From positions 1-64,000 of the IMG/VR virus record IMGVR_UViG_3300009166_000001: a DNA stretch of 64,000 nucleotides. One strand, written 5' to 3'. The translations under genes and the position numbers were made by a program. Shown here piece by piece: positions 5,254-57,204 of the stretch (position 1 is the first letter of the stretch; every line of letters starts with the position of its first letter). A model generated the notes under the pieces. It saw only the letters and a program-made list of their open reading frames with translations. It had not been told where the DNA came from and searched no databases. This stretch comes from a virus.

Positions 5254-5493
5254 CTACCCGGACAGCTTCACCATCTGCTCCGTGAGCTTGTCCAGTAGCT
5301 TGCTCACGTCGTTCGACATCTCGATACCCCTCTGCGCGTCTGCCTCCAGGTGTTCCTTCCCTGTGATGCGAGCCATGACGAGGCTCGATCCTGCTTCCTG
5401 TCGAAGATCCCGACGGAAGGCCACGAGTCCTCCCAAGATCAGCCCCAGATCGCTCTTTGTCACCGTGATCTCCGCTCTCAACTCGTCTGCCAT
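5254..5493 (-). CDS. hypothetical protein
   Basis: ORF with AGGAG/AAGG RBS. Confidence 0.6.
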   Translation of the reverse strand: MADELRAEITVTKSDLGLILGGLVAFRRDLRQEAGSSLVMARITGKEHLEADAQRGIEMSNDVSKLLDKLTEQMVKLSG

Positions 5494-5506
5494 CTTCCTT
5501 CTCCTT

Positions 5507-7091: not shown

Positions 7092-8786
7092 TCAGAACAG
7101 ACTCGCCTGATCGGTGTCCTCGCCATCCTTATCCTCTGGATCCTCTGCAAAAAGCCCGAACGCTGTCTGATCATCCCCGTCTTCTCTTGCCTCCACGGCA
7201 TCCATCGTCGCAACGTCCTGCGGAATCGTACCGTAGCACCTCACATGTTCCTCTGCCCATGCGATCCGGGCCTTGGCAATCTCCACGTACTCGGCCTCCC
7301 TCTCGATCCCGATCCAGTCCTTCCCCTCCAAGATGGCAGCCATCGCCGTCGTACCGCTGCCAAGGAAGGGATCGAGTACCACGCTGCTTTTTCCAGGGGG
7401 GGTCACGAGCCGTACCAGCCACCTCAGCAGGTCTACGGGCTTCACTGTCGGATGCGTGCTGCGTTTACTCTCCAGACCAAGACTACGTTCCGCGGCACTC
7501 GCCTTAGCCTCGTATCTGAAGCACGGGAAGAAGCGAGCGGCAGTGCCGGTATCGTTGTAACCTTGTTCTCCGGGATGTCCCAATGCGCCCAGGAAGTCTC
7601 CGCTTCGCTTATTGACATGCGACGAATCAATCCATGTCGTCTTTCGTTCCCCGCTTTGCTCTCCTAGTTCACGGATCGGGCAGCCCTCGACACACTCCCA
7701 CACCTGGATGGTCTCGTTGCCAGTCGCGTCCGCGAAACCCTCGAACGAAGTTCCGCTGTATTCTCCAATACCGGCGTGGCCGCTATACTTGCCCTTCTTG
7801 AATCCTCCTCCATTCCCTGCCCGTGTTCCCTTCACCGTCTTCGTCCCTACCTGCTTACAGTCGGGATGATGGCAGAGTACGAGATTCGACGGCCAGCGAC
7901 CTTCCGGTTGCTTGAAGGCTTCAGGTGGTAGCCGTCCTCCACCAGCTTCCAGTATCGAGGATGTTCCCCCTGCCTCTCCTGTCAGGCCCATCGCTGACGT
8001 TGGGCGAACACCTCCACTGTAGGCTCCTCCATTGAGGTTGTCGCCTGTCGCAACTCGGCATCCGTCGATGTTGATCGCCCCCGTCCCATGTTTCAGGACA
8101 TTCTCTGCGACCGTACTAACAAGCGGCTTGCGGGCAACGACAATTGGTTCCCATGCGGGTTTAAGGGCAGTGCCCCAACCGGACCACCTGTGGGCGTCGT
8201 CGGTTGCAGGGGCATATTCAGAGGACGAGGCTTGTTCACGCATGAACTGGCCCGGCCCCGCACCAAACCCGCGTCCCGCCTTATTGTCGGGTGAACAGCC
8301 GCTCTTATACTTCCCGTGGGCAGGACTATCAGGATCGGGACCGCCCTGTGGACACCCCCGCGCCGCCTTGTCGATGGCCTTCGACACGTCCATCGATTTC
8401 GGAAACCCCGATCCGTAACACCACCCAAGCAACCCGATGCTGTCCCTGATCTCGAACCCAGCATCCTCGATGGCGCACGCGAGCCGATGGAAGGTTCTCG
8501 TGCCGCCGAAGGCGAGAATGTGGCCTCCGGGTTTCAGTACGCGGAAGGCTTCTTGCCACGTCGCCGGGTCGAACGCAACACCAGTGGCATCCCAGGCCAT
8601 ACCCATAAATCCACCGTTGCGTGTACCGTGACGACCAAAAGGCGTATCTGAATTAATGGATCTACCAGATCCATTTCGTGACACCGCCAAAAGATCATAC
8701 GGTGGGTCCGTCACGATGGCATCGACCGACTCCGGCTCCATCGCCTTCATCGCCTCGATGCAATCACTTGCAATCAGCTTGCCCAC
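7092..8786 (-). CDS. DNA methyltransferase (N6A/N4C, beta class) with large insertions
   Basis: VTDPPY near N-terminus; HPTVKP and [10 protein letters not shown] near C-terminus. Confidence 0.9.
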
Positions 8787-26217: not shown

Positions 26218-26444
26218 CAGAACACTCCCTCGTCATCATCGTCATCGACTTCGATAGTCTCACCAAAGACTATCACCTCTGCCTTCTCCACTGCCCCCAC
26301 CATCGCCTCCCGCACCTTCCACTCCCACCCCTGCGCCTCGTCCGCGTTTCTGGCCAGCCTCGCAGATGCCCCACGAAAGGCATCCCCTATCGAGGCGAGC
26401 CCCTTCGCGGTAATCCATACGAGCCGTCCAACCATCACCAGTAT

Positions 26445-27383
26445 CTATAACTGGCCATCGCTTTTTGTCAAGGGACGATAGATCACGACTCCCTTATTGA
26501 TGTGCTGCTTGTACCCGGACGCTACTGCCGCCTCCTCGATCACGTCCAGGTCTACCGAATGCACTACTCGACCCCCAGCTATCGTTGCCTTCGCATCACT
26601 CTTTCGTACCGCCTCTACCTGCGAGATCGTGGCGTTATACTCCTTCATCTTCCGGAAGTACGCCTTCGCCTTCAGGCACACGTTCCTCTTTCGAAGCACT
26701 TCCAGCCGTCCAGCGGGCGGCATCACCGGCTCTGGTATCGGTTCGGGCCTTGGCTCGATCACCGGCTCTGGCTTCGGCTTCGGCTTCCTCGCACGCACAC
26801 GCACGGGCGCGTCCACACGCACCACCGGGCGCACACGCGCTACACGCACGCGCTCGCTCACGCGCCTGCGACCCTCCAGGTGCTCCCTGATCTTCTCGTA
26901 GTCCTCGTCCGATATCTCCCGCCTCGTCCTCGTCACGAACGGAATCTCCACCCCGATCCTCTTGGCCGCCGCCAAGAAGGTCTGCCGACTCACCGGCACC
27001 TTCTTGATCGCATCGTTCACGCTCATGCGCCCATGTGTCTGACGACAGCCCAAGCCCAGCTTGTGCGCCCTCGTCACGACCGACCACGCCGTCCTGCCTA
27101 TGCCCTCCGCGATCTCCTTCGTGGACTTCTGGCCGAGCAACTGTCTCAGGACCAGATCCTCCCCCGGTGTCCACTTCCTCGCTATGCCCGATGGACGGTG
27201 GAACGATTCCGACCGCACCTTCATCTCGTAGCACTTGAACTTCACCGCTTGGTAGCTACGGTTGTTCCCGAACCGGAGATTCAGTTCCTTCTGGAGCACA
27301 CGCCTGGAGAAGCGAGCCCCATACTGACGTAGGAACTCGTTCTCAGCATCGGTCCAGCCTATCCGTGCATGTCCACTTCTCAT
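26445..27383 (-). CDS. DNA-binding protein with two Myb/SANT-like HTH repeats
   Basis: WTDAENEFLRQ and WTPGEDLVLRQ...IAEGIGRT.WSV..RA.KLGL. Confidence 0.65.
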   Translation of the reverse strand: MRSGHARIGWTDAENEFLRQYGARFSRRVLQKELNLRFGNNRSYQAVKFKCYEMKVRSESFHRPSGIARKWTPGEDLVLRQLLGQKSTKEIAEGIGRTAWSVVTRAHKLGLGCRQTHGRMSVNDAIKKVPVSRQTFLAAAKRIGVEIPFVTRTRREISDEDYEKIREHLEGRRRVSERVRVARVRPVVRVDAPVRVRARKPKPKPEPVIEPRPEPIPEPVMPPAGRLEVLRKRNVCLKAKAYFRKMKEYNATISQVEAVRKSDAKATIAGGRVVHSVDLDVIEEAAVASGYKQHINKGVVIYRPLTKSDGQL

Positions 27384-27456
27384 GGCGACCCCAACGGGAT
27401 TCGAACCCGTGTTACCGGCTTGAAAGGCCAGCCTCCTACCCTTGGAGGATGGGGCC
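27383..27456 (-). tRNA. tRNA-Glu(UUC), encoded CCA
   Basis: cloverleaf; anticodon loop CTTTCAA; T-loop TTCGAAT. Confidence 0.9.
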
Positions 27457-27461
27457 TTCTG

Positions 27462-27536
27462 TCGGGGCGAGAGGATTTGAACCTCCGACGTTCGGCTCCC
27501 AAAGCCGATGCGCTGGCCAGACTGCGCTACACCCCG
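27462..27536 (-). tRNA. tRNA-Pro(UGG)
   Basis: CGGGGTG acceptor; loop TTTGGGA. Confidence 0.92.
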
Positions 27537-27540
27537 TCAG

Positions 27541-27614
27541 TGGACCTGATCGGACTTGAACCGATCACCTCCGGCTTGCAAAACCGGCGCTCTACCCAGA
27601 TGAGCTACAGGCCC
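27541..27614 (-). tRNA. tRNA-Ala(UGC)
   Basis: loop TTTGCAA; G3:U70 pair. Confidence 0.92.
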
Positions 27615-27664
27615 ATAGTGGCAGTTTGAGTCGGCCACTACGACTACAGCCCTCAATGGGCTTG

Positions 27665-27736
27665 TTGCAGGAGCGGGACTTGAACCCGCGATCTCCGAGT
27701 TATGAGCCCGGCGTCGTACCACTGGACCACCCTGCA
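27665..27736 (-). tRNA. tRNA-Met(CAU), initiator-like
   Basis: GGGCTCATAAC anticodon arm; U1:A72. Confidence 0.85.
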
Positions 27737-27740
27737 ATAG

Positions 27741-28110
27741 TGGAGACGGCGGGAGTCGAACCCGCGTCCGACCTGCTTCACGAACATCATCTACGTGCGT
27801 AGCTGCTCTTGGCTGGCAGCCCACCTCGATAGCCTCCTGCTATCCCCTCCCTGGCACCTCCACCACCGACTTGTGCTCCGTCAAGTCGGAACCGGGGTCT
27901 GGTCCTTCCCTTGTCGCCCACGAGCTACAGGACCGCTCACTCGTAGTTTCCGGCTTAGGCCGCCAGGGCCATCTGGCTCTGGACGGGCCTCTGCTGGTAC
28001 GACGGAACCGACTTGCGGTTGCCGTTTGGATCTTGCCTGATTGAACCATGCTCAGGCTCATGGACACGCCGACGTTCGATCCATCAGACCGTCGAAACCG
28101 TTTCGTCCCC
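27741..28110 (-). ncRNA. ssrA: tmRNA; predicted tag (A)GNRKSVPSYQQRPVQSQMALAA
   Basis: 5' GGGGACGAAACGGTTTCGAC; 3' GACGCGGGTTCGACTCCCGCCGTCTCCA with G3:U70; tag ORF 28023-27955 ends ALAA-TAA. Confidence 0.93.
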
Positions 28111-28113
28111 AAG

Positions 28114-28127
28114 GTTCTCAAAGAGCA
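28114..28127 (-). promoter_or_regulatory. boxA-like antitermination element TGCTCTTTGAGAAC
   Basis: matches rrn boxA (TGCTCTTT); directly upstream of tmRNA. Confidence 0.65.
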
Positions 28128-28129
28128 AT

Positions 28130-28587
28130 GAACCGAAGTTCCAGATCGAGTCAGGACGGTGTGCTTCTACGCCAATGGCTGATCGGGCGTACTCAGTGCA
28201 TTAACGGATTCCCAGGGACTCAACGTGGTCCTCCGTGTCTCACCTCTTTCAAGGCATCCTCGCGCTCCTTTCGTACTAGCGAGGCCAACACCTGCATCTG
28301 GCTTGCTCCAGTTTCCTCACGGCGCGGAAGGAACATCCTAGTACGACTCCGCTTATCCGATCCTCCCCTGGAGTGCTACCTTTCCCCGGTGGTCAATCCC
28401 GCCGATGTAAGTTCACCGTACCGTTCCACAAGATGTCTGTCGCACACCATCCTATGTTCCGGTTGTTCTCCTGCGGGTTGCTTGCCTTCGCCTCATGTTG
28501 ACTACTGCGCTTCCACCTCGCCACTCCTTAGCTGATGGCTGCTTCTAAGCCTACAGTCCATCCTGGCTCGATCTAGAACTTCGGTTC
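28130..28587 (-). ncRNA. large structured RNA carrying 23S rRNA H43/H44 (uL11 site) and sarcin-ricin loop mimics
   Basis: ~30-bp terminal stem 28130-28159/28558-28587; GGCTTAGAAGCAGCCATCA; CTAGTACGAAAGGA in a 6-bp stem. Confidence 0.8.
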
Positions 28588-28597
28588 TCAAAGAACA
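28584..28597 (-). promoter_or_regulatory. boxA-like antitermination element TGTTCTTTGAGAAC
   Basis: near-identical to the 28114 copy; at the 5' end of the rRNA-mimic stem. Confidence 0.65.
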
Positions 28598-28683
28598 GAA
28601 GGGGACGCTGCCTAGTCGAGAATCCGTCCGTAGTCCCTGGAAACGGGGAGAGGACAGAATTCGTTTTCGACAGCGTTGCCCCT

Positions 28684-28758
28684 GCGGCTCTCCTGGACTC
28701 GAACCAGGATGCGTAGAACTGGTCAGGTTCTACCGCTCTGCCATTGAGCTAAGAGCCA
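28684..28758 (-). tRNA. atypical tRNA-like element (nominal anticodon GAC; 7-bp anticodon stem)
   Basis: normal D and T arms; anticodon arm GTAGAAC-CTGACCA-GTTCTAC. Confidence 0.7.
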
Positions 28759-28759
28759 T

Positions 28760-29187
28760 ACATTCTACCTATGGGCGCTTAAGGGAACCCACTTGGATAC
28801 CTGCCCACCAGGATTTTTAGGTTATCAGTTCTGCTCCACTTTTCGTTTCGCAGTGCCAGACACCCTTCGTCCCGGCACCACTCGACTCTCCCGCTCACGA
28901 TGACGATGAACGACTGGAGGATCGCTGTCAGCTTCCGCGTGATCCCCCGGACCCATCCGGTCATCGCTGCGAAGAGAGCCTTGACCACAAGATCCATCTT
29001 CCACTTTCCCATCGAACTCGTCAAGCCTTTCGGCCATTGCAATCAATTGCACGGTAGAGATCGGAGACAGCCAACCTCTACCGTCCAATGGGGCCTGCGA
29101 CGTTGACTTTGACGGAGGCACCGTCGCCGGTCCCACTGGCCCCCCATAGTGCAGGGGGCCGATTCGACGCCAAGAACCAGTCCCGTC
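28760..29187 (-). ncRNA. candidate second large structured RNA / structured leader
   Basis: several stems, GNRA hairpin GCC-GAAA-GGC, no convincing ORF; begins at promoter. Confidence 0.5.
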
Positions 29188-29193
29188 ACTCTG

Positions 29194-29221
29194 ACTATAA
29201 CAGGACAGCGTGTTTTGTCAA
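29194..29221 (-). promoter_or_regulatory. sigma70 promoter of the ncRNA operon, TTGACA-16-TATAGT
   Basis: direct match. Confidence 0.8.
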
Positions 29222-29229
29222 GGGACTGT

Positions 29230-29700
29230 CTACGGATTCGGGTAGGCAACGATCTTCTCGAAGGTGATCCTTGCGAGGCAAGCTCCGGTAGCCGCTGCGG
29301 AAGTCGTCAGTTCCAGCCACTCGTCTGGGGCCAGACGAAGGGCATCGGGATCGGTCAAGACGTACTCCGTGACCCCACCAGTCACCCACAGCACATCCAT
29401 CCCGCCCGCGCTCCTGATCCTCAGATCCCATGTCCCGCCCACAGGCAGCCCCGTCATGTCCAGAATGACCCTCTGGACCGTCAGGAATCGCCTGGGGTTG
29501 CCTAGCTCCATCTCCCTTCGGGTAGACGCTGGAAGGCCCGGTACGTCCACCGGAGGCCCTGCCATGAACCTTCCACCAGCCACCCCTATCTCCGGCGGAT
29601 AGGCCCTCACCCCATCCTGATCGGTCGGATTCCCGGTCGGAGCCGTCCCGTTGAACTGCCCTCCCACCGCCAATGCCTGCTCCACTATTATCGGGATCAT
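29230..29700 (-). CDS. probable virion protein
   Basis: last ORF of the tail operon; GGAAAG RBS. Confidence 0.55.
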   Translation of the reverse strand: MIPIIVEQALAVGGQFNGTAPTGNPTDQDGVRAYPPEIGVAGGRFMAGPPVDVPGLPASTRREMELGNPRRFLTVQRVILDMTGLPVGGTWDLRIRSAGGMDVLWVTGGVTEYVLTDPDALRLAPDEWLELTTSAAATGACLARITFEKIVAYPNP

Positions 29701-29713
29701 GGTTCTTTCCTCC

Positions 29714-30196
29714 TCAGATGATGATATCGATCTCGTAGATCAACTGCGTCGTCGCGTACTTCGTGTCCACGGGAAAGGTGAAGTACGCTACCATGTGTCC
29801 GGCCGAGTCGAAGATCGCAAACTCCCAGAACTCCGGCGGGTTCCCGAACCCGTCGTCATTCGCCTCCCCGAAGTCCACCACACACTCGATCCTCACGATG
29901 TTCGGAGCAACGAACAGGATGCTGTTGAACGCCTTCACTCCTATCGACGGGAACACGAACCGGCTGTCTACCGGATAGCTGCCAGGGTTCTCAACGCAAT
30001 CCAAGTCCGTCAGGGAAGGGTTAGGTGACTTCGGCACCTTCGTCGGCGGTACGGTGTACTGCCATCCCCCTTCCCCAATCTTGAAGCCCCCCCCGAAGAT
30101 CCGGTCGAAGAACCCGAGAGGATCTACGGGATCCGCATGATACCTCGCCCATCCCTCTTCCAGCGATTCCGCGATGACGCCTATTACCGTTGTCAT
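29714..30196 (-). CDS. baseplate/tail-fibre attachment protein (P2 gpH N-terminal-like)
   Basis: IGEGG...EAN...EFAIFDSAG.MVAY.TFP. Confidence 0.6.
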   Translation of the reverse strand: MTTVIGVIAESLEEGWARYHADPVDPLGFFDRIFGGGFKIGEGGWQYTVPPTKVPKSPNPSLTDLDCVENPGSYPVDSRFVFPSIGVKAFNSILFVAPNIVRIECVVDFGEANDDGFGNPPEFWEFAIFDSAGHMVAYFTFPVDTKYATTQLIYEIDIII

Positions 30197-30209
30197 GTCC
30201 TCACCCTCC

Positions 30210-31670
30210 TCAGTGCGTCAACGTGGCCGTGAACGAGTACAGATCCGTGGAGATCACATCGGCCTCCACGACATCGTACAGATAGCGAAGGCCCGCGACA
30301 AGCCTCCTCGATATCCCCTTCCGAAGCAAGGCCCGAAGATTCAGGCTGGCCTTCGCGTGGATCACCAAGGCGAACCGTGCGAACTCCACATGGATCGGCT
30401 TCAGGTCGTACATCGCATCGACTACCCGCTCGAACACGTACAGCCTCTCCTGGTCCGTCATCGCTACCGAGGGATCGTACTCTAGTTCCACCCCGATCTT
30501 GTGCGTCCCGCAGTAGCAGCAGTCCAGCCAGATCGGACAGGCATAGTCGAACAAGGCTTGCCCCGAAGGAGCCGGTCCTGCTCCCGATACGATCACCTTC
30601 CAGACGTTCGCCCCCAGGTACTCCGGAATCGCCTCCAGGTAGTAGCTGTAGGTCGTGCCCCCGCTCGTCACGTCCAGGTGCCAGTGCCCCGGCCATGCAA
30701 TCGCAAGTAGTGCCGTGGACGGTGCATTGATCGTCAGTTCCCATCCCGCGTAGGGACTCGTGAAGGCTACCCCTGACGAGATTGGGTACGGCCCCAACGG
30801 GATCACAGACGAGAACGCTGGATCCGAGCAGAAGATGTCGGTCGGGATGATGTCCGCGGCGATCTCATCGTAGAGTGGCATCCTTGGCTCAACGCACGTG
30901 TAGAACTTCCCACTCCCCACCGGGATCTCGAACACCTCGTCCGGCGGCAACGAGGACTCGAACCCGCACCGCACTCTCCATAGGTGGCACAACGACACCG
31001 TGAACCCGTAGAGCTTGCAGATGTACTCGTAGCCCTGTTGCGTCCCCTTCCACATCCTCCGCTGGTCATGGTGGAGGATCTGCGACCGCTCCCGAGCCTC
31101 CCCTAGATACTGGTCCACTTCCTCCCCGAAGTCGGCTCCCAAGTGGACGATCTGCTCCTCTGGCCGGAACCAATACTTCGTCCCGACCACCGGCTGATCC
31201 TCTGTCCCGTGAATCACCACCCGCCAGTTCGAGGTTGCCAGCGTCGTGTCGCTGTCGAGCTTGTAGACCCTCTCGACCACCCACCGCTTGAACGCCAAGT
31301 CCTGCGTCTCGATAACCCAGGTCTTCGACGCCTCCTCGATGGGGCTTCCCTTGATGTAGAGTGAGAGCCAACGATTGCCTGGATCGTCCGACTCATGCTG
31401 CTCGATGGACACGATCTCGATCTCGTGACGCTGGTTGTACCTCGTCCTGCATGTCCAAGGGTTTCTCAGGTTGAAGAAGTCCCGAATCGACTCCCGCAGC
31501 ATCTTCACGGACGGGATGATAGTGTTCACGAAGTTCCGCATGAACGACTCGCCCTGCTTCTCGTCCCGGAGCCGTCTCATCTCCGGGATCTGATTCCACA
31601 GGACATCGTTCTCCCAGTACCACTCTCCGAAGTAGCCGGAGCCGAACCCACCTATCCCGAATCCAGGCAT
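30210..31670 (-). CDS. baseplate wedge subunit (P2 gpI / T4 gp7-like)
   Basis: HLGADFG...R..KGTQQGY...LKPIH motifs. Confidence 0.65.
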   Translation of the reverse strand: MPGFGIGGFGSGYFGEWYWENDVLWNQIPEMRRLRDEKQGESFMRNFVNTIIPSVKMLRESIRDFFNLRNPWTCRTRYNQRHEIEIVSIEQHESDDPGNRWLSLYIKGSPIEEASKTWVIETQDLAFKRWVVERVYKLDSDTTLATSNWRVVIHGTEDQPVVGTKYWFRPEEQIVHLGADFGEEVDQYLGEARERSQILHHDQRRMWKGTQQGYEYICKLYGFTVSLCHLWRVRCGFESSLPPDEVFEIPVGSGKFYTCVEPRMPLYDEIAADIIPTDIFCSDPAFSSVIPLGPYPISSGVAFTSPYAGWELTINAPSTALLAIAWPGHWHLDVTSGGTTYSYYLEAIPEYLGANVWKVIVSGAGPAPSGQALFDYACPIWLDCCYCGTHKIGVELEYDPSVAMTDQERLYVFERVVDAMYDLKPIHVEFARFALVIHAKASLNLRALLRKGISRRLVAGLRYLYDVVEADVISTDLYSFTATLTH

Positions 31671-54051: not shown

Positions 54052-54600
54052 CTAGAGCGACAGGTACGCAGTCGGCTGCCAGCCCACCGGGTATGCCACG
54101 GACGGCTCGACGATCTTGAACCGCTCGATGGAGATTTCCACCTCCGCGAGAGAGATGTCGGAGGATGTCGCGTCCATGTCTCCCGCTGGCTTCATCCGGA
54201 TCGGCTGCGCCTCCTCGCACACGTACTGGCGAGCGTAGTTGAGATCCGCCCTGTTGGCGCTCTCGTCCGGTTCCTTGCCGACCCTGTGGTAGTGGTAGAT
54301 CGTCAGGGTGCCCTTGTACTCGCCGCCCTCGATGTTGAAGATCATCCACTCGTAGAACCTGGACTGCTTCGGCGTGACGCCTCTCGTCAGGGTGACGCTG
54401 CTCACCGTGGCGATTCCCGGCTGCTTGCGGGTGTACGTCATGATGCCTTCGCGGTACTCGGCGTCGTCCGTGGAAAGCTCCGGCAGTGAACAGGTGTTGA
54501 AGCCTGCCTCGATGCTGCTCAGGTAGTCGATGCCACCCGGACCCACGACCGAAGCATGGAACCTGAAGTTCTGGAAGTAGTCCGTGTTTGCGCTTCTCAT
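54052..54600 (-). CDS. tail tube protein (T4 gp19 family)
   Basis: NFRFH, AGF..CS.PE, EYREG, KQPG, VTLTRG, DMDATSSD. Confidence 0.9.
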   Translation of the reverse strand: MRSANTDYFQNFRFHASVVGPGGIDYLSSIEAGFNTCSLPELSTDDAEYREGIMTYTRKQPGIATVSSVTLTRGVTPKQSRFYEWMIFNIEGGEYKGTLTIYHYHRVGKEPDESANRADLNYARQYVCEEAQPIRMKPAGDMDATSSDISLAEVEISIERFKIVEPSVAYPVGWQPTAYLSL

Positions 54601-54615
54601 GGCTCTCTCCTCCTA

Positions 54616-57204
54616 TCAGGCAACTGCCGTAAGCTGCTGATACCTGAACAGGATGAACTCTCCCGGCGTTGTCGGGGCCAGATACACGTCGCAGATCACG
54701 ATGCCCTGCTCCGCGATGGCTGGCGTGTTGTTCGAGGTGTCGCAGACGACCTTGTAGGCCAGCGACGGGATTCCGGTCGGGAAGTAGCCCAAGCTCAGGA
54801 GTCCCGACAAGAACCCTTCCACGAGGTTCTTGATCCTGTCGTACATGCCCGTCGAGATCGTCTCGAACACGAAGCCCCACGTGCTCTTGTAGACCGACTT
54901 CTCCACGAACATGAAGAACCGACGCCTCTGGATCAGGTAGAAGTCGTCCCTGCTCAGGGTCCTGGCTCCCCAGATGACCCTCCCCGTCTCGGCCGACTCG
55001 TACAGGCAGTTGACTCCCACCTTGTTCAAGATGCCGATCTCTTCCAGGCTCAGGTTCCGCTCCAGGCCCACCACGAGATTCAGCGCACCGTCCTCCACAC
55101 CGGCGGGGGCCTTGCTCACCGTCTTGTCGTTGTCCGTCCTCGCGTATGCGCCCGCGATCCACCCGCACGGAGCCATCGACACCTGGAGATCCGTCTTCGG
55201 GTCGATGATGTTCACGAAGGGGTAGTACAGGGCGCAGAACGAGGAGTAGGACGCCAGCGTGAGCTTCTTGTAGTCCTTCGCCTGTGTCGGCGTTGCCCCC
55301 TGCGGGACGCTCGCCACGATGAACTTGTCCAGCTTCCTCTCTGCCCACGCGATCAGGTCCAGCGTGACAGTTGCGTCCGTGGCGAAGTCCGGGATCGCCA
55401 CCGTCATCATCTCGTCCGGGACGTTCAGGGCGTAGACTCCCCGGTTCGTCGCTTCCAGGGCCGGGCTCGACACCTGAAGCCTCGTGATCGGGAGCACTCC
55501 GTCCGTCCCGCCTGTCGGCGCGTCCGTGCAGAAGTCCCCACACGATGCCGTCGTGTAGTACCTCGCCCGCAGGAATCCATCCTGGTTCGGGAGACCCGCC
55601 GGGATCGGCTGCGTCGGAATCGCACTGGTCGTGAACTCCAGTGCGCCCGTGGTGTAGTCCACCGTGTTCGTCCCGGCCGGGTTCACGTCTCCGGTCAGGT
55701 TCCCCTCGCCATCGTCCGTGATCGTGAACAGCGTTCCAGCCGCATCGTAGTACCGGATCGTCAGGGTCCGGGGGATGATCGGGCTGCTCACCTGCGCCGC
55801 GTTCGCACCCTCGAACACGGTCATCACACCGTTGCCACCCGCTATCGCCTCGCCCCACACGTTGTTGTAGCTCTTGCGGAGCCTACCGTTGACGCCCCCC
55901 GTGAACGTGTCCTGCGCCGCCGTCGCGTTCATCACGATCAGGTCGGAGCCCTTGAAGGCGTCGTTGATGACCGACACGATGTAGTTCGCGCTCGTGGGGT
56001 CCGTCAGATCCAGTTCCGTGAAGGTCTCCTTCAGAGTCAGGACGCCCTCTATCGGGTCGTCGTACCAGACCTCGATGTCCACCCTGCTGTACTGGCCCGT
56101 CGATGCCGTGTAGAACTCCTCGCTGCCGTAGACCCGGATCTCCAGATCGTTGCCCCATGCCCCCCTGGAGGTGGCACAGAACCCGAAGTCGTCCTGGATG
56201 TAGTCCGCGAGCACCTGCGAGCCTGCCATGACCGGAGCCGGTGCGGCTCCCGTCCCGAAGTGGAACGTGAAGGCTCCCGCCACGCCTGCCAGACCAGTGC
56301 CGTCGTAGTCGATCCACCTCGGCTGCGCCGGATCGATGGCTCCTACCAGAACACCAGCTAGGTCCGTCACGGTCCTCTCGGTCCCGTAGTTGAACGGGTT
56401 GGGGTTCGTGATCGAGTTGCCTGCTCCGATGTTCGTCGGCACCGTGAACAGCGCCATGTCGATGACCACGATCCCTGTCTGGCAGTCGATGTAGCCTACC
56501 GTGGCGAACGGCGCTACCGACTCCCGCAGCGCGATGATGTCGTTGGCCGGTGCGGTAGCCAACATGTCTACCGTCCTCGCCACCGCTCCACCGTCGAGCC
56601 ACGTGAACGCCCCCACGAGCAGTGCCAGCGGACGCTCTATCGGACGGATCGGATTCCCACCCGCGTCCTGGATCTGGAAGACCACCCTCGTCTCCGGTGC
56701 CGCACCTGCCGTGTAGTGAGTGATTCCACCCGCGAGAATCGTCTGCTCCCACCACCGGAATCTCACGGTGCCCGCCGTGAGAGGAGCCGGTGCATCGACC
56801 GGCACGTTGATCAGGTCGTTGGCGTTCGGTCCCGGCAGTCCAGAACTGGCGCTCCGGCAGAGAAGCGTACCGCTCGCTATGTCGGCATCCACCTCTTCGT
56901 CGAGCACGTTGTTCTCGATGAACCCGCAGGCTGCCACCGCGTCCGGACGGCACACCCTCACCACGTATGCCTGACGCCCCTCCTGTGCGAAGAAGGCGTA
57001 CACCTGCATCGCCAGCGTGCTGTCCGTGATGAAGTCACCGAACTGCTCCTGGAACTGCGTGAACGACGTGATCAGGGTCGCCTCGTCCTCAGGTCCACGC
57101 TCGGCCGCTCCCACAACCCCGAAGTTGCTGGTGCTGACACCCTGGATCGGAGCAATCCTGCGGCGCTCCTCGTTGTAGATGCCCGGATACGAGAACTGCG
57201 GCAT
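54616..57204 (-). CDS. contractile tail sheath protein
   Basis: YPGIY.EE, GAAERGP, GAWGN, YYP, P.G.IAG.YARTD, KAPAG, WGARTL, RR, P.EFI. Confidence 0.95.
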   Translation of the reverse strand: MPQFSYPGIYNEERRRIAPIQGVSTSNFGVVGAAERGPEDEATLITSFTQFQEQFGDFITDSTLAMQVYAFFAQEGRQAYVVRVCRPDAVAACGFIENNVLDEEVDADIASGTLLCRSASSGLPGPNANDLINVPVDAPAPLTAGTVRFRWWEQTILAGGITHYTAGAAPETRVVFQIQDAGGNPIRPIERPLALLVGAFTWLDGGAVARTVDMLATAPANDIIALRESVAPFATVGYIDCQTGIVVIDMALFTVPTNIGAGNSITNPNPFNYGTERTVTDLAGVLVGAIDPAQPRWIDYDGTGLAGVAGAFTFHFGTGAAPAPVMAGSQVLADYIQDDFGFCATSRGAWGNDLEIRVYGSEEFYTASTGQYSRVDIEVWYDDPIEGVLTLKETFTELDLTDPTSANYIVSVINDAFKGSDLIVMNATAAQDTFTGGVNGRLRKSYNNVWGEAIAGGNGVMTVFEGANAAQVSSPIIPRTLTIRYYDAAGTLFTITDDGEGNLTGDVNPAGTNTVDYTTGALEFTTSAIPTQPIPAGLPNQDGFLRARYYTTASCGDFCTDAPTGGTDGVLPITRLQVSSPALEATNRGVYALNVPDEMMTVAIPDFATDATVTLDLIAWAERKLDKFIVASVPQGATPTQAKDYKKLTLASYSSFCALYYPFVNIIDPKTDLQVSMAPCGWIAGAYARTDNDKTVSKAPAGVEDGALNLVVGLERNLSLEEIGILNKVGVNCLYESAETGRVIWGARTLSRDDFYLIQRRRFFMFVEKSVYKSTWGFVFETISTGMYDRIKNLVEGFLSGLLSLGYFPTGIPSLAYKVVCDTSNNTPAIAEQGIVICDVYLAPTTPGEFILFRYQQLTAVA

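What the first reader, a model, noticed from the sequence alone, without database searches (positions are those of the whole stretch)
27383..29221. An rrn-like, all-RNA operon with boxA sites: candidate translation-protection cassette
Seen, in transcription order from one promoter: structured RNA, odd tRNA, long hairpin, boxA, rRNA-mimic RNA, boxA, tmRNA, then tRNA-Met, -Ala, -Pro and -Glu. The two boxA-like 14-mers (TG[CT]TCTTTGAGAAC) differ at one base. Known: rrn operons place boxA before long processing stems and use Nus factors against Rho termination. Inference: the phage borrows host rRNA antitermination and processing to mass-produce a 1.8-kb untranslated transcript.
Basis: partly seen in the sequence, partly recalled or inferred. 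Interest (0 to 1): 0.7.

Follow-up and report, generated by a model that had tools for sequence, protein, structure and literature searches.

The report
Phage RNA operon with rRNA-type boxA
An uncultured soil and wetland phage packs a ribosomal-RNA look-alike, a tmRNA and five tRNAs behind one promoter and brackets the look-alike with two exact copies of the signal that actinobacteria place in their own ribosomal-RNA operons, so it probably uses the host's rRNA transcription and trimming machinery to make its own stable RNAs.

Summary
On the minus strand, a near-consensus promoter (29221-29194) is followed by a structured leader, an odd tRNA-Val, an 85-nt hairpin, boxA-1, a ~400-nt RNA closed by a 30-bp stem, boxA-2, a tmRNA and four tRNAs. 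From tRNA-Val to tRNA-Met every element lies within 3 nt of the next, so these must be co-transcribed.

New here: both 14-mers are natural rrn boxA variants of Actinomycetota. In whole Nocardia and Rhodococcus genomes the motif occurs only in rrn operons, as leader plus spacer pairs. In those hosts the spacer boxA lies inside the pre-23S processing stem, which is the phage's layout. Cultured actinophages carry the same signal; in mycobacteriophage PegLeg one copy sits 24 nt before its tmRNA.

Corrections:
- The operon is not strictly all-RNA. The leader holds a probable 72-aa ORF, and transcription runs on into protein genes.
- "Mass production" and "translation protection" are untested.
- The phage copies lack the boxC-like tail.
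- Two syntenic relatives keep the promoter but carry protein cargo, so boxA conservation could not be tested.

This scan has noted host-type boxA before phage stable-RNA genes on other DNA. I found no paper describing it. Verdict: new variant of a known kind.

The parts
29194..29221 (-). Sigma-A/sigma-70-type promoter, TTGACA-16-TGtTATAGT
   Evidence: 11 of 12, extended -10. One of 7 copies of TTGACAAAr..CCTGT-TATAkT in the window. Conserved at the syntenic slot in L213 and L214.
29040..29187 (-). Structured 5' leader with two strong hairpins (29158..29137 and 29089..29046)
   Evidence: The 14-bp hairpin has z -5.5; the whole leader has z -3.8.
28779..28997 (-). Probable 72-aa ORF (MDLVVKALFAAM...), an ORFan
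   Evidence: GC3 0.70 and codon score +0.15, against -0.41 and -0.28 in the other frames. Called by gene callers, with no homologues. No Pfam or PHROG match.
28684..28758 (-). Odd tRNA-Val(GAC) with a 7-bp anticodon stem and a pyrimidine at position 37
   Evidence: 41.5 bits; fold.
28599..28683 (-). Long hairpin ending 1-2 nt before boxA-1, in the position of a boxB
   Evidence: (-38.5 kcal/mol, z -4.8).
28584..28597 (-). boxA-1, TGTTCTTTGAGAAC. Its last 4 nt start the stem.
   Evidence: Identical to the rrn leader boxA of Nocardia, Rhodococcus, Gordonia, Lentzea, Saccharopolyspora, Micromonospora and Actinoplanes.
28558..28587 (-). 5' arm of the 30-bp closing stem
28160..28557 (-). rRNA-like RNA core: copy of the 23S H43 GTPase-centre loop (28551..28533) and a sarcin-ricin-like loop (28277..28266, GAAA in place of GAGA)
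   Evidence: Exact RNA-library contigs cover 28264-28571 and 28379-28630.
28130..28159 (-). 3' arm of the 30-bp closing stem
28114..28127 (-). boxA-2, TGCTCTTTGAGAAC. It lies 2 nt after the stem and 3 nt before the tmRNA.
   Evidence: This variant is the rrn leader boxA in two Actinomycetota genomes (L220, L221).
27738..28110 (-). tmRNA. The tag frame 28023..27955 gives GNRKSVPSYQQRPVQSQMALAA*
   Evidence: (100 bits). The ARAGORN tag frame looks wrong.
27664..27736 (-). tRNA-Met(CAU)
27615..27663 (-). 49-nt spacer with two small hairpins
   Evidence: No promoter-like site.
27383..27614 (-). tRNA-Ala(UGC), tRNA-Pro(UGG) and tRNA-Glu(UUC), 3-4 nt apart
   Evidence: An RNA-library contig at 27343-27493 bridges Pro, Glu and the ORF start.
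26445..27383 (-). 312-aa Myb-like / D5-like transcription regulator. Its ATG overlaps the last base of tRNA-Glu.
   Evidence: (phrog_323, 4.6e-21).

Best explanation
This is a phage cargo cassette built on the plan of a host rRNA operon.

Host RNA polymerase starts at the promoter at 29221..29194. It transcribes a structured leader (with a probable small ORF), then a continuous block of stable-RNA genes, and runs on into the regulator and tail genes.

The two 14-mers are working boxA sites. While still single-stranded, each loads host NusB-NusE(S10) onto the elongating polymerase. Two effects follow:
1. The roughly 1.4 kb of untranslated RNA, and the protein genes behind it, are shielded from Rho-dependent termination and polarity.
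2. The 5' arm is kept close to the polymerase until the 3' arm appears about 430 nt later, which helps the 30-bp stem form.

RNase III then cuts the stem and releases the rRNA-like RNA. That cut also removes boxA-1. BoxA-2, which makes up nearly the whole 19-nt spacer before the tmRNA, reloads the complex, as the 16S-23S spacer boxA does in rrn operons. RNase P and RNase Z release the tmRNA and tRNAs.

Shown: the sequence identity, the layout, the forced co-transcription, the host parallels and the parallels in cultured actinophages. Inferred: Nus binding, Rho resistance, RNase III cleavage and the reload step.
For: - Both 14-mers are exact rrn boxA variants. TGTTCTTTGAGAAC lies 126-257 nt upstream of 16S, co-oriented, in about 38 of 120 sampled genome hits, all of them actinomycetes. 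TGCTCTTTGAGAAC is the leader boxA in L220 and L221.
- In five whole actinomycete genomes the motif occurs only in rrn operons, as co-oriented leader plus spacer pairs in three of them; in Nocardia and Rhodococcus the two copies differ at one base. The control pattern gave 0.
- The host spacer boxA lies inside the 5' strand of the pre-23S processing duplex. The phage puts boxA-1 at the outer end of a 30-bp stem around a 23S-like RNA.
- Only the 14-nt cores match the hosts. The flanks and the stem do not. This argues for selection on the core rather than recent capture.
- Gaps of 0-4 nt from tRNA-Val to tRNA-Met, and again from tRNA-Ala to the ORF start (a 49-nt spacer with no promoter-like site lies between), one promoter-like site and no terminator down to about 20178.
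- The promoter is conserved in the syntenic relatives L213 and L214, which carry translated cargo and no boxA.
- Cultured actinophages carry rrn-type boxA in untranslated leaders (42 of 42 hits are actinophages). PegLeg has hairpin, boxA and boxC 24 nt before its tmRNA.
- An RNA-library contig spans 28379-28630, across boxA-1.
- In E. coli, rrn boxA alone suffices for antitermination, and the rrn complex tethers the 5' nut element and aids long-range pairing (PMC2724277, PMC8632103).
Against: - The phage copies lack the UCAAYAGUG (boxC-like) tail that follows boxA in host leaders and in the cultured actinophage copies.
- The transcript is G-rich, with few and mostly structured C>G windows, so the predicted need for protection from Rho is modest.
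- No relative carrying the cassette was found, so there is no conservation or covariation evidence.
- BoxA-1 and boxA-2 can pair with each other over about 10 bp, which allows a purely structural role.
- The host is unknown.
- The RNA-library data are contigs. They cannot show a single transcript, ends or levels, and DNA carry-over is not excluded.
Confidence: 0.55

Rival explanations
1. The 14-mers are mainly structural. They extend and mark the processing stem, copying the host pre-23S design in which boxA is part of the duplex. They guide RNase III or folding and have no real effect on termination.
For: In the minimum-free-energy fold, boxA-1 pairs with boxA-2 over about 10 bp beyond the 30-bp stem. 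In hosts the spacer boxA is inside the 23S flank duplex. The boxC-like tail is missing. Rut-like windows are few.
Against: Pairing alone does not require the exact host sequence. Both copies match natural rrn boxA variants at 14 of 14 bases, while the rest of the stem shows no host similarity. BoxA-2 is on the 3' side, where hosts have an anti-boxA strand and not a boxA.
Confidence: 0.2
2. The boxA copies are decoys. Abundant phage RNA carrying two boxA sites titrates host NusB-S10 and so lowers host rRNA synthesis.
For: The copies match host rrn boxA exactly. They lie on a transcript driven by a near-consensus promoter. Neither NusB nor S10 is encoded in the 95-kb record.
Against: After cuts by RNase III and RNase P, both boxA copies would end up on short trailer or spacer fragments that are unlikely to be stable. 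Two sites per transcript is a weak sink. There are no expression-level data. Cultured actinophages place boxA at the head of operons, which is the classic position for acting in cis.
Confidence: 0.08
3. The 14-mers are relics with no present function. They could be left from an old capture of host pre-rRNA DNA that was later deleted down to the GTPase-centre and sarcin-ricin parts, or they could be chance.
For: The H43-like and sarcin-ricin-like parts come in the same order as in 23S. In hosts a boxA sits in the 5' flank of 23S.
Against: Chance is excluded. The exact 14-mers are expected fewer than 0.001 times per window; shuffles give 0.44 even at 2 mismatches. Everything around the cores has diverged beyond recognition, yet the cores stay 14 of 14. 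Capture does not explain a second boxA on the 3' side. BoxA-2 fills almost the whole 19-nt spacer before the tmRNA.
Confidence: 0.07

Closest known systems
Actinobacterial rrn operon nut-like sites (leader and 16S-23S spacer boxA) with the pre-16S and pre-23S processing stems
   Same: Same 14-nt boxA. Two co-oriented copies differing at one base, bracketing an rRNA-type RNA. A hairpin lies before boxA. BoxA lies at or in a long stem formed by the two flanks. tRNA-type genes follow in the same transcript.
   Different: There are no 16S, 23S or 5S genes. The enclosed RNA is about 400 nt and keeps only two 23S motifs. The copies are 470 nt apart, not about 2 kb. There is no boxC-like UCAAYAGUG tail. 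The 3' partner of boxA-1 is a second boxA rather than an anti-boxA strand. The unit continues into protein genes.
boxA-boxC elements of cultured actinophages (Mycobacterium phage PegLeg and cluster M relatives; Gordonia phage Bantam; Nocardia phage P3.1; Streptomyces phage Immanuel3), found here in unannotated DNA
   Same: These are phage copies of the host rrn signal on the transcribed strand of untranslated leaders. In PegLeg, hairpin plus boxA sits directly before the tmRNA inside the tRNA array.
   Different: Those copies keep the boxC-like tail and vary more in the 5' half of boxA. Most head protein-coding early operons. None brackets a stem-enclosed rRNA-like RNA.
Lambda nut sites (boxA, spacer, boxB, with N protein) and other lambdoid antitermination
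   Same: A phage uses a boxA RNA element and host Nus factors to make polymerase resistant to termination (PMC2724277).
   Different: The order is hairpin then boxA, as in rrn, not boxA then boxB. The boxA is the full rrn type (UGCUCUUU..) and not the weaker lambda form. No N-like protein was sought or found. The cargo is stable RNA.
Phage tRNA/tmRNA gene clusters with extra stable RNAs (for example the T4 tRNA region with its two small stable RNAs; recalled from memory)
   Same: Co-oriented, tightly packed tRNA genes co-transcribed with other stable RNAs and released by host RNases.
   Different: I know of no described case with rrn-type boxA or a stem-enclosed rRNA look-alike. Literature searches here found none.

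Membership tests
rrn-type Nus-factor (boxA) antitermination site | boxA core matching the rrn consensus of the host group | tested here: met
   Both 14-mers are natural rrn leader boxA variants of Actinomycetota. Copy 2 begins UGCUCUUU, as does the E. coli rrn boxA quoted in PMC2724277.
rrn-type Nus-factor (boxA) antitermination site | On the transcribed strand, in an untranslated leader or spacer, downstream of a promoter | tested here: met
   Both copies lie in non-coding spacers of the RNA block.
rrn-type Nus-factor (boxA) antitermination site | A leader copy plus a spacer copy that reloads after processing | tested here: met
   The layout is met: copies lie before and after the stem-enclosed RNA, as in host leader and spacer pairs. 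The reloading itself is inferred.
rrn-type Nus-factor (boxA) antitermination site | boxC-like segment after boxA (UCAAYAGUG in actinomycete leaders; recalled as the NusA site in M. tuberculosis) | tested here: not met
   The phage copies continue CGAAGUUC and CUUGGGGA. Hosts and cultured actinophages keep the tail. BoxC is not required for antitermination in E. coli.
rrn-type Nus-factor (boxA) antitermination site | Hairpin (boxB) upstream of boxA | tested here: inconclusive
   An 85-nt hairpin ends 1-2 nt before boxA-1. Host leaders have shorter hairpins 10-25 nt upstream. BoxA-2 has only the closing stem before it.
rrn-type Nus-factor (boxA) antitermination site | NusB-NusE binding and boxA-dependent resistance to Rho | not testable with these tools
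   Needs binding assays and reporter tests.
rrn-type Nus-factor (boxA) antitermination site | Conservation in related phages | tested here: inconclusive
   The only relatives fetched (L213, L214) lack the cassette.
Ribosomal RNA (rrn) operon | Encodes 16S, 23S and 5S rRNA | tested here: not met
   No LSU match in the record. Rfam finds only the tmRNA and tRNAs. The RNA shares only about 58 nt and 17 nt with 23S.
Phage tRNA/tmRNA gene cluster | Co-oriented, closely packed tRNA genes with a tmRNA in a phage genome | tested here: met
   All RNA genes of the 95-kb record lie here.
Lambda-type nut site | boxA followed by a boxB hairpin that is bound by an N protein | tested here: not met
   The hairpin precedes boxA, and no hairpin follows either copy apart from the closing stem. 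An N-like protein was not searched for.

The most novel reading that the evidence does not exclude
The cassette is a complete miniature rrn operon that hands a non-ribosomal cargo to the host's rRNA antitermination and chaperone complex. The complex would fold and excise a decoy of the ribosome's factor-binding centre (GTPase-centre loop plus an uncleavable-looking GAAA sarcin-ricin loop). Delivered together with a tmRNA, spare tRNAs and a tRNA look-alike, this would form one counter-defence module against host toxins that cut rRNA or tRNA. The boxA pair would make its expression Rho-proof and rrn-like in speed.
Probability: 0.2. Interest if true: 0.85.

Novelty: new variant of a known kind. 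Interest (0 to 1): 0.62.

Why it matters
If the boxA sites work, this phage shows that the rRNA antitermination complex can be recruited by a virus to make, fold and trim its own stable RNAs. That complex has been treated as a housekeeping device of rrn operons. The use would differ from the lambda N system.

The cassette is a compact natural test object for the "tether and reload" model of leader and spacer boxA. It holds a promoter, hairpin, boxA, a 430-nt insert closed by a stem, a second boxA and a tmRNA within 1.1 kb.

The check in cultured actinophages suggests the habit is widespread and unannotated. In PegLeg a copy sits before the tmRNA. That opens direct experiments in Mycobacterium smegmatis. 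It also points to an actinobacterial host for an otherwise unplaced phage lineage.

Tried and rejected
- Close DNA relatives: the GenBank phage search hit only tRNAs. IMG/VR scans with the sarcin-ricin-like 15-mer and a boxA-plus-stem 16-mer gave only chance hits.
- Single-protein locus search found nothing. Profile searches gave one viral and one metagenome relative, both without the cassette.
Contigs of the closer homologues P0001-P0007 could not be read.
- IMG/VR scan for the exact 14-mer: 118 loci (truncated). None had a co-oriented tRNA or tmRNA, or a second copy.
- The 64 phage loci that carry the GTPase-centre 19-mer have no boxA and no sarcin-ricin motif near it. The one boxA-like hit, in L057, is inside coding sequence.
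- Searching the papers library for the motif as text returned nothing useful. Two papers on M. tuberculosis NusA are not held. One paper search timed out.
- Host assignment by a baseplate protein against cultured phages: only remote hits of 26-27% identity.
- Read data: DNA runs showed no polymorphism in the operon, so natural variation could not be used. RNA runs are contigs only. Parts without cover and depth differences were not interpreted.
- NusB and S10 genes were not found in the 95-kb record, which is estimated 58% complete.
Full report
**What is there**

The window is part of a 95-kb IMG/VR virus record, about 60% G+C and estimated 58% complete, with nearly all genes on the minus strand. 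ARAGORN and Rfam find five tRNAs and one tmRNA. These are the only RNA genes of the record, and all lie on the minus strand between 28758 and 27383.

In transcription order the region reads as follows:
- A promoter, TTGACA-16-TGtTATAGT, at 29221..29194. It matches 11 of 12 positions and is the only promoter-like site in 26300-30300.
- A 430-nt leader.
- tRNA-Val(GAC) at 28758..28684.
- An 85-nt hairpin at 28683..28599 (z -4.8).
- TGTTCTTTGAGAAC at 28597..28584.
- A 30-bp stem, with arms 28587..28558 and 28159..28130, around a ~400-nt RNA.
- TGCTCTTTGAGAAC at 28127..28114.
- A tmRNA at 28110..27738 (100 bits).
- tRNA-Met, a 49-nt spacer, then tRNA-Ala, tRNA-Pro and tRNA-Glu.
- A 312-aa Myb-like regulator gene, whose ATG shares its A with the last base of tRNA-Glu.

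The enclosed RNA carries a 19-nt copy of the 23S H43 (GTPase-centre) loop region. It also carries a sarcin-ricin-like AGUACGAAAGGA, in the same order as in 23S. No 23S gene is present. The tRNA-Val is odd as described: it has a 7-bp anticodon stem and scores 41.5 bits against 60-65 for the others.

**One transcription unit**

From tRNA-Val to tRNA-Met (1,095 nt) each element lies 0-3 nt from the next. Ala, Pro, Glu and the ORF lie 0-4 nt apart. The only gap that could hold a promoter is the 49-nt spacer, which has no promoter-like site. No terminator-like site lies on this strand between the promoter and about 20178.

The promoter belongs to a family of seven near-identical sites in the window, TTGACAAAr..CCTGT-TATAkT with a 16-nt spacer. 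It is kept at the same slot, after the homologue of the 156-aa gene, in two syntenic relatives that share 65-66% identity in a baseplate protein. In those relatives it drives protein cargo; in L213 this is a 927-aa ORF, which I did not annotate. So the RNA block is variable cargo in a promoter-bearing slot. The relatives with translated cargo have no boxA.

Two metatranscriptome runs hold exact contigs on 28264-28571, on 28379-28630 (across boxA-1) and on 27343-27493 (tRNA-Pro, tRNA-Glu and the ORF start). These are contigs, and DNA carry-over cannot be excluded.

The block is not strictly all-RNA. A 72-aa ORF at 28997..28779 has coding-type GC3 (0.70) and a positive codon score, and gene callers call it. 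It has no homologues.

**The 14-mers are real rrn boxA sequences**

A scan of one genome per species for TGTTCTTTGAGAAC returned 120 loci before it stopped. About 38 of them share the context GTG..TGTTCTTTGAGAACTCAAYAG, and where 16S lies within the fetched DNA (about 15 loci) the motif is 126-257 nt upstream of it and co-oriented. All of these are actinomycetes: Nocardia, Rhodococcus, Gordonia, Lentzea, Saccharopolyspora, Actinosynnema, Micromonospora and Actinoplanes.

In five whole genomes the motif TGTT[CG]TTTGAGAAC occurs only in rrn operons. In three of them it comes as co-oriented leader and spacer pairs 2.0-2.2 kb apart. In Nocardia and Rhodococcus the two copies differ at one base. 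The reversed control pattern gave 0.

The C variant (the phage's second copy) is the leader boxA, 214-239 nt before 16S, in two other Actinomycetota genomes.

The flanks of the phage copies, and the stem, show no similarity to host rrn DNA. Only the cores are shared. That argues for selection on the cores and against recent capture.

**Layout parallels**

In Nocardia, Rhodococcus and Actinoplanes the spacer boxA lies 41-50 nt before the 23S 5' end. It sits inside the 5' strand of the long duplex formed by the two flanks of 23S. The phage likewise puts boxA-1 at the outer end of the long stem around a 23S-like RNA. BoxA-2 fills almost all of the 19 nt between that stem and the tmRNA. Because the actinobacterial boxA is nearly palindromic (GUUC..GAAC), boxA-1 and boxA-2 can also pair over about 10 bp.

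According to PMC2724277 and PMC8632103:
- rrn boxA alone suffices for antitermination in E. coli.
- NusB-NusE bind boxA.
- rrn nut-like sites have the order boxB, boxA, boxC.
- The complex holds the 5' nut element at the RNA exit and is thought to help the long-range RNase III stem form.

**Independent parallels in cultured phages**

This scan's notebook lists many earlier AI notes of host-type boxA before phage stable-RNA genes. I used them only as a lead.

I searched a 53-nt host leader segment against GenBank phages. All 42 records hit are actinophages, and the hits always fall in unannotated DNA.
- In Mycobacterium phage PegLeg, one copy (CGTTGTTTGAGAACTCCATAGTGTG) lies about 470 nt before the first gene of the leftward operon.
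- A second PegLeg copy (hairpin, then TGTTGGTTGAGAACTCAATAGTGG) lies between tRNA-Trp and the tmRNA, co-oriented and 24 nt before the tmRNA.
- Bantam, Nocardia phage P3.1 and Immanuel3 have copies 300-400 nt before the first gene of an operon.

I found no paper describing this.

**Weaknesses**

- The phage copies lack the UCAAYAGUG tail that hosts and the cultured phages keep.
- The transcript is G-rich, with few C>G windows.
- The host is unknown.
- Nus binding, Rho resistance and RNase III cleavage are inferences.
- "Mass production" and "translation protection" are untested. The tRNAs read A-ending codons that the phage uses at 16-25%, which fits ordinary codon supplementation.

**Verdict**

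The best reading (0.55) is an rrn-style, boxA-equipped RNA cassette. The main rival (0.2) is a purely structural role for the 14-mers in the processing stem. This is a new variant of a known kind.

Noticed in passing
L005-L069 (IMG/VR), e.g. L017:8525-8860, L029:7490-7890: The 19-mer GGCTTAGAAGCAGCCATCA (23S H43 loop) occurs in 64 viral contigs that have no 23S gene. It always sits at the 5' part of a small non-coding RNA. In about two thirds of the loci this RNA lies among co-oriented tRNA genes. In L017 the order is tRNA-Arg, this RNA, tmRNA. In L029 it is closed by a 19-bp stem between protein genes. This looks like a widespread phage RNA family that copies the uL11/GTPase-centre site.
   Followed up: partly
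NC_021299.1 (PegLeg) 54594-54673 and 79536-79562; NC_031074.1 91442-91470; MW582532.1 2992-3013; NC_048686.1 44911-44936: Cultured actinophages carry unannotated copies of the host rrn boxA-boxC signal in untranslated leaders of operons. In PegLeg one copy also lies directly before the tmRNA.
   Followed up: partly
window 6801, 10486, 12409, 19460, 20152, 29221 (minus strand), 63021 (plus strand); L213:12488-12516 and about 16542: A family of near-identical strong promoters, TTGACAAAr-N-CCTGT-TATAkT with a 16-nt spacer. It is conserved in a 66%-identity relative.
   Followed up: partly
window 29230-27383 compared with L213:12460-15350 and L214:2140-3312: The slot after the 156-aa tail-region gene is hypervariable cargo space. 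It holds the RNA cassette here, a 927-aa ORF (not annotated) in L213, and other protein genes in L214.
   Followed up: partly
window 27955-28023 (minus strand): ARAGORN's tmRNA tag (EGPDPGSDLTEHKSVVEVPGRG) is probably in the wrong frame. The frame at the Rfam-aligned resume position gives GNRKSVPSYQQRPVQSQMALAA*, which has the canonical ALAA end.
   Followed up: yes
L102:2288-2330 with 5440-5500; L109:4363-4404 with 7537-7600: In Nocardia and Rhodococcus the 16S-23S spacer boxA pairs with a near-complementary stretch just after 23S. In these hosts boxA is therefore buried in the pre-23S processing stem once the 3' flank has been made.
   Followed up: partly
window 28684-28753 in RNA run X9: A 151-nt RNA-library contig matches the odd tRNA-Val exactly over 70 nt and then continues into unrelated sequence. 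It could be a variant phage with another neighbour or an assembly chimera.
   Followed up: no
window 27300-29300 in public runs: The same phage, near-identical, is present in soil, wetland and freshwater-sediment metagenomes of 2017-2025 from 11 studies.
   Followed up: no
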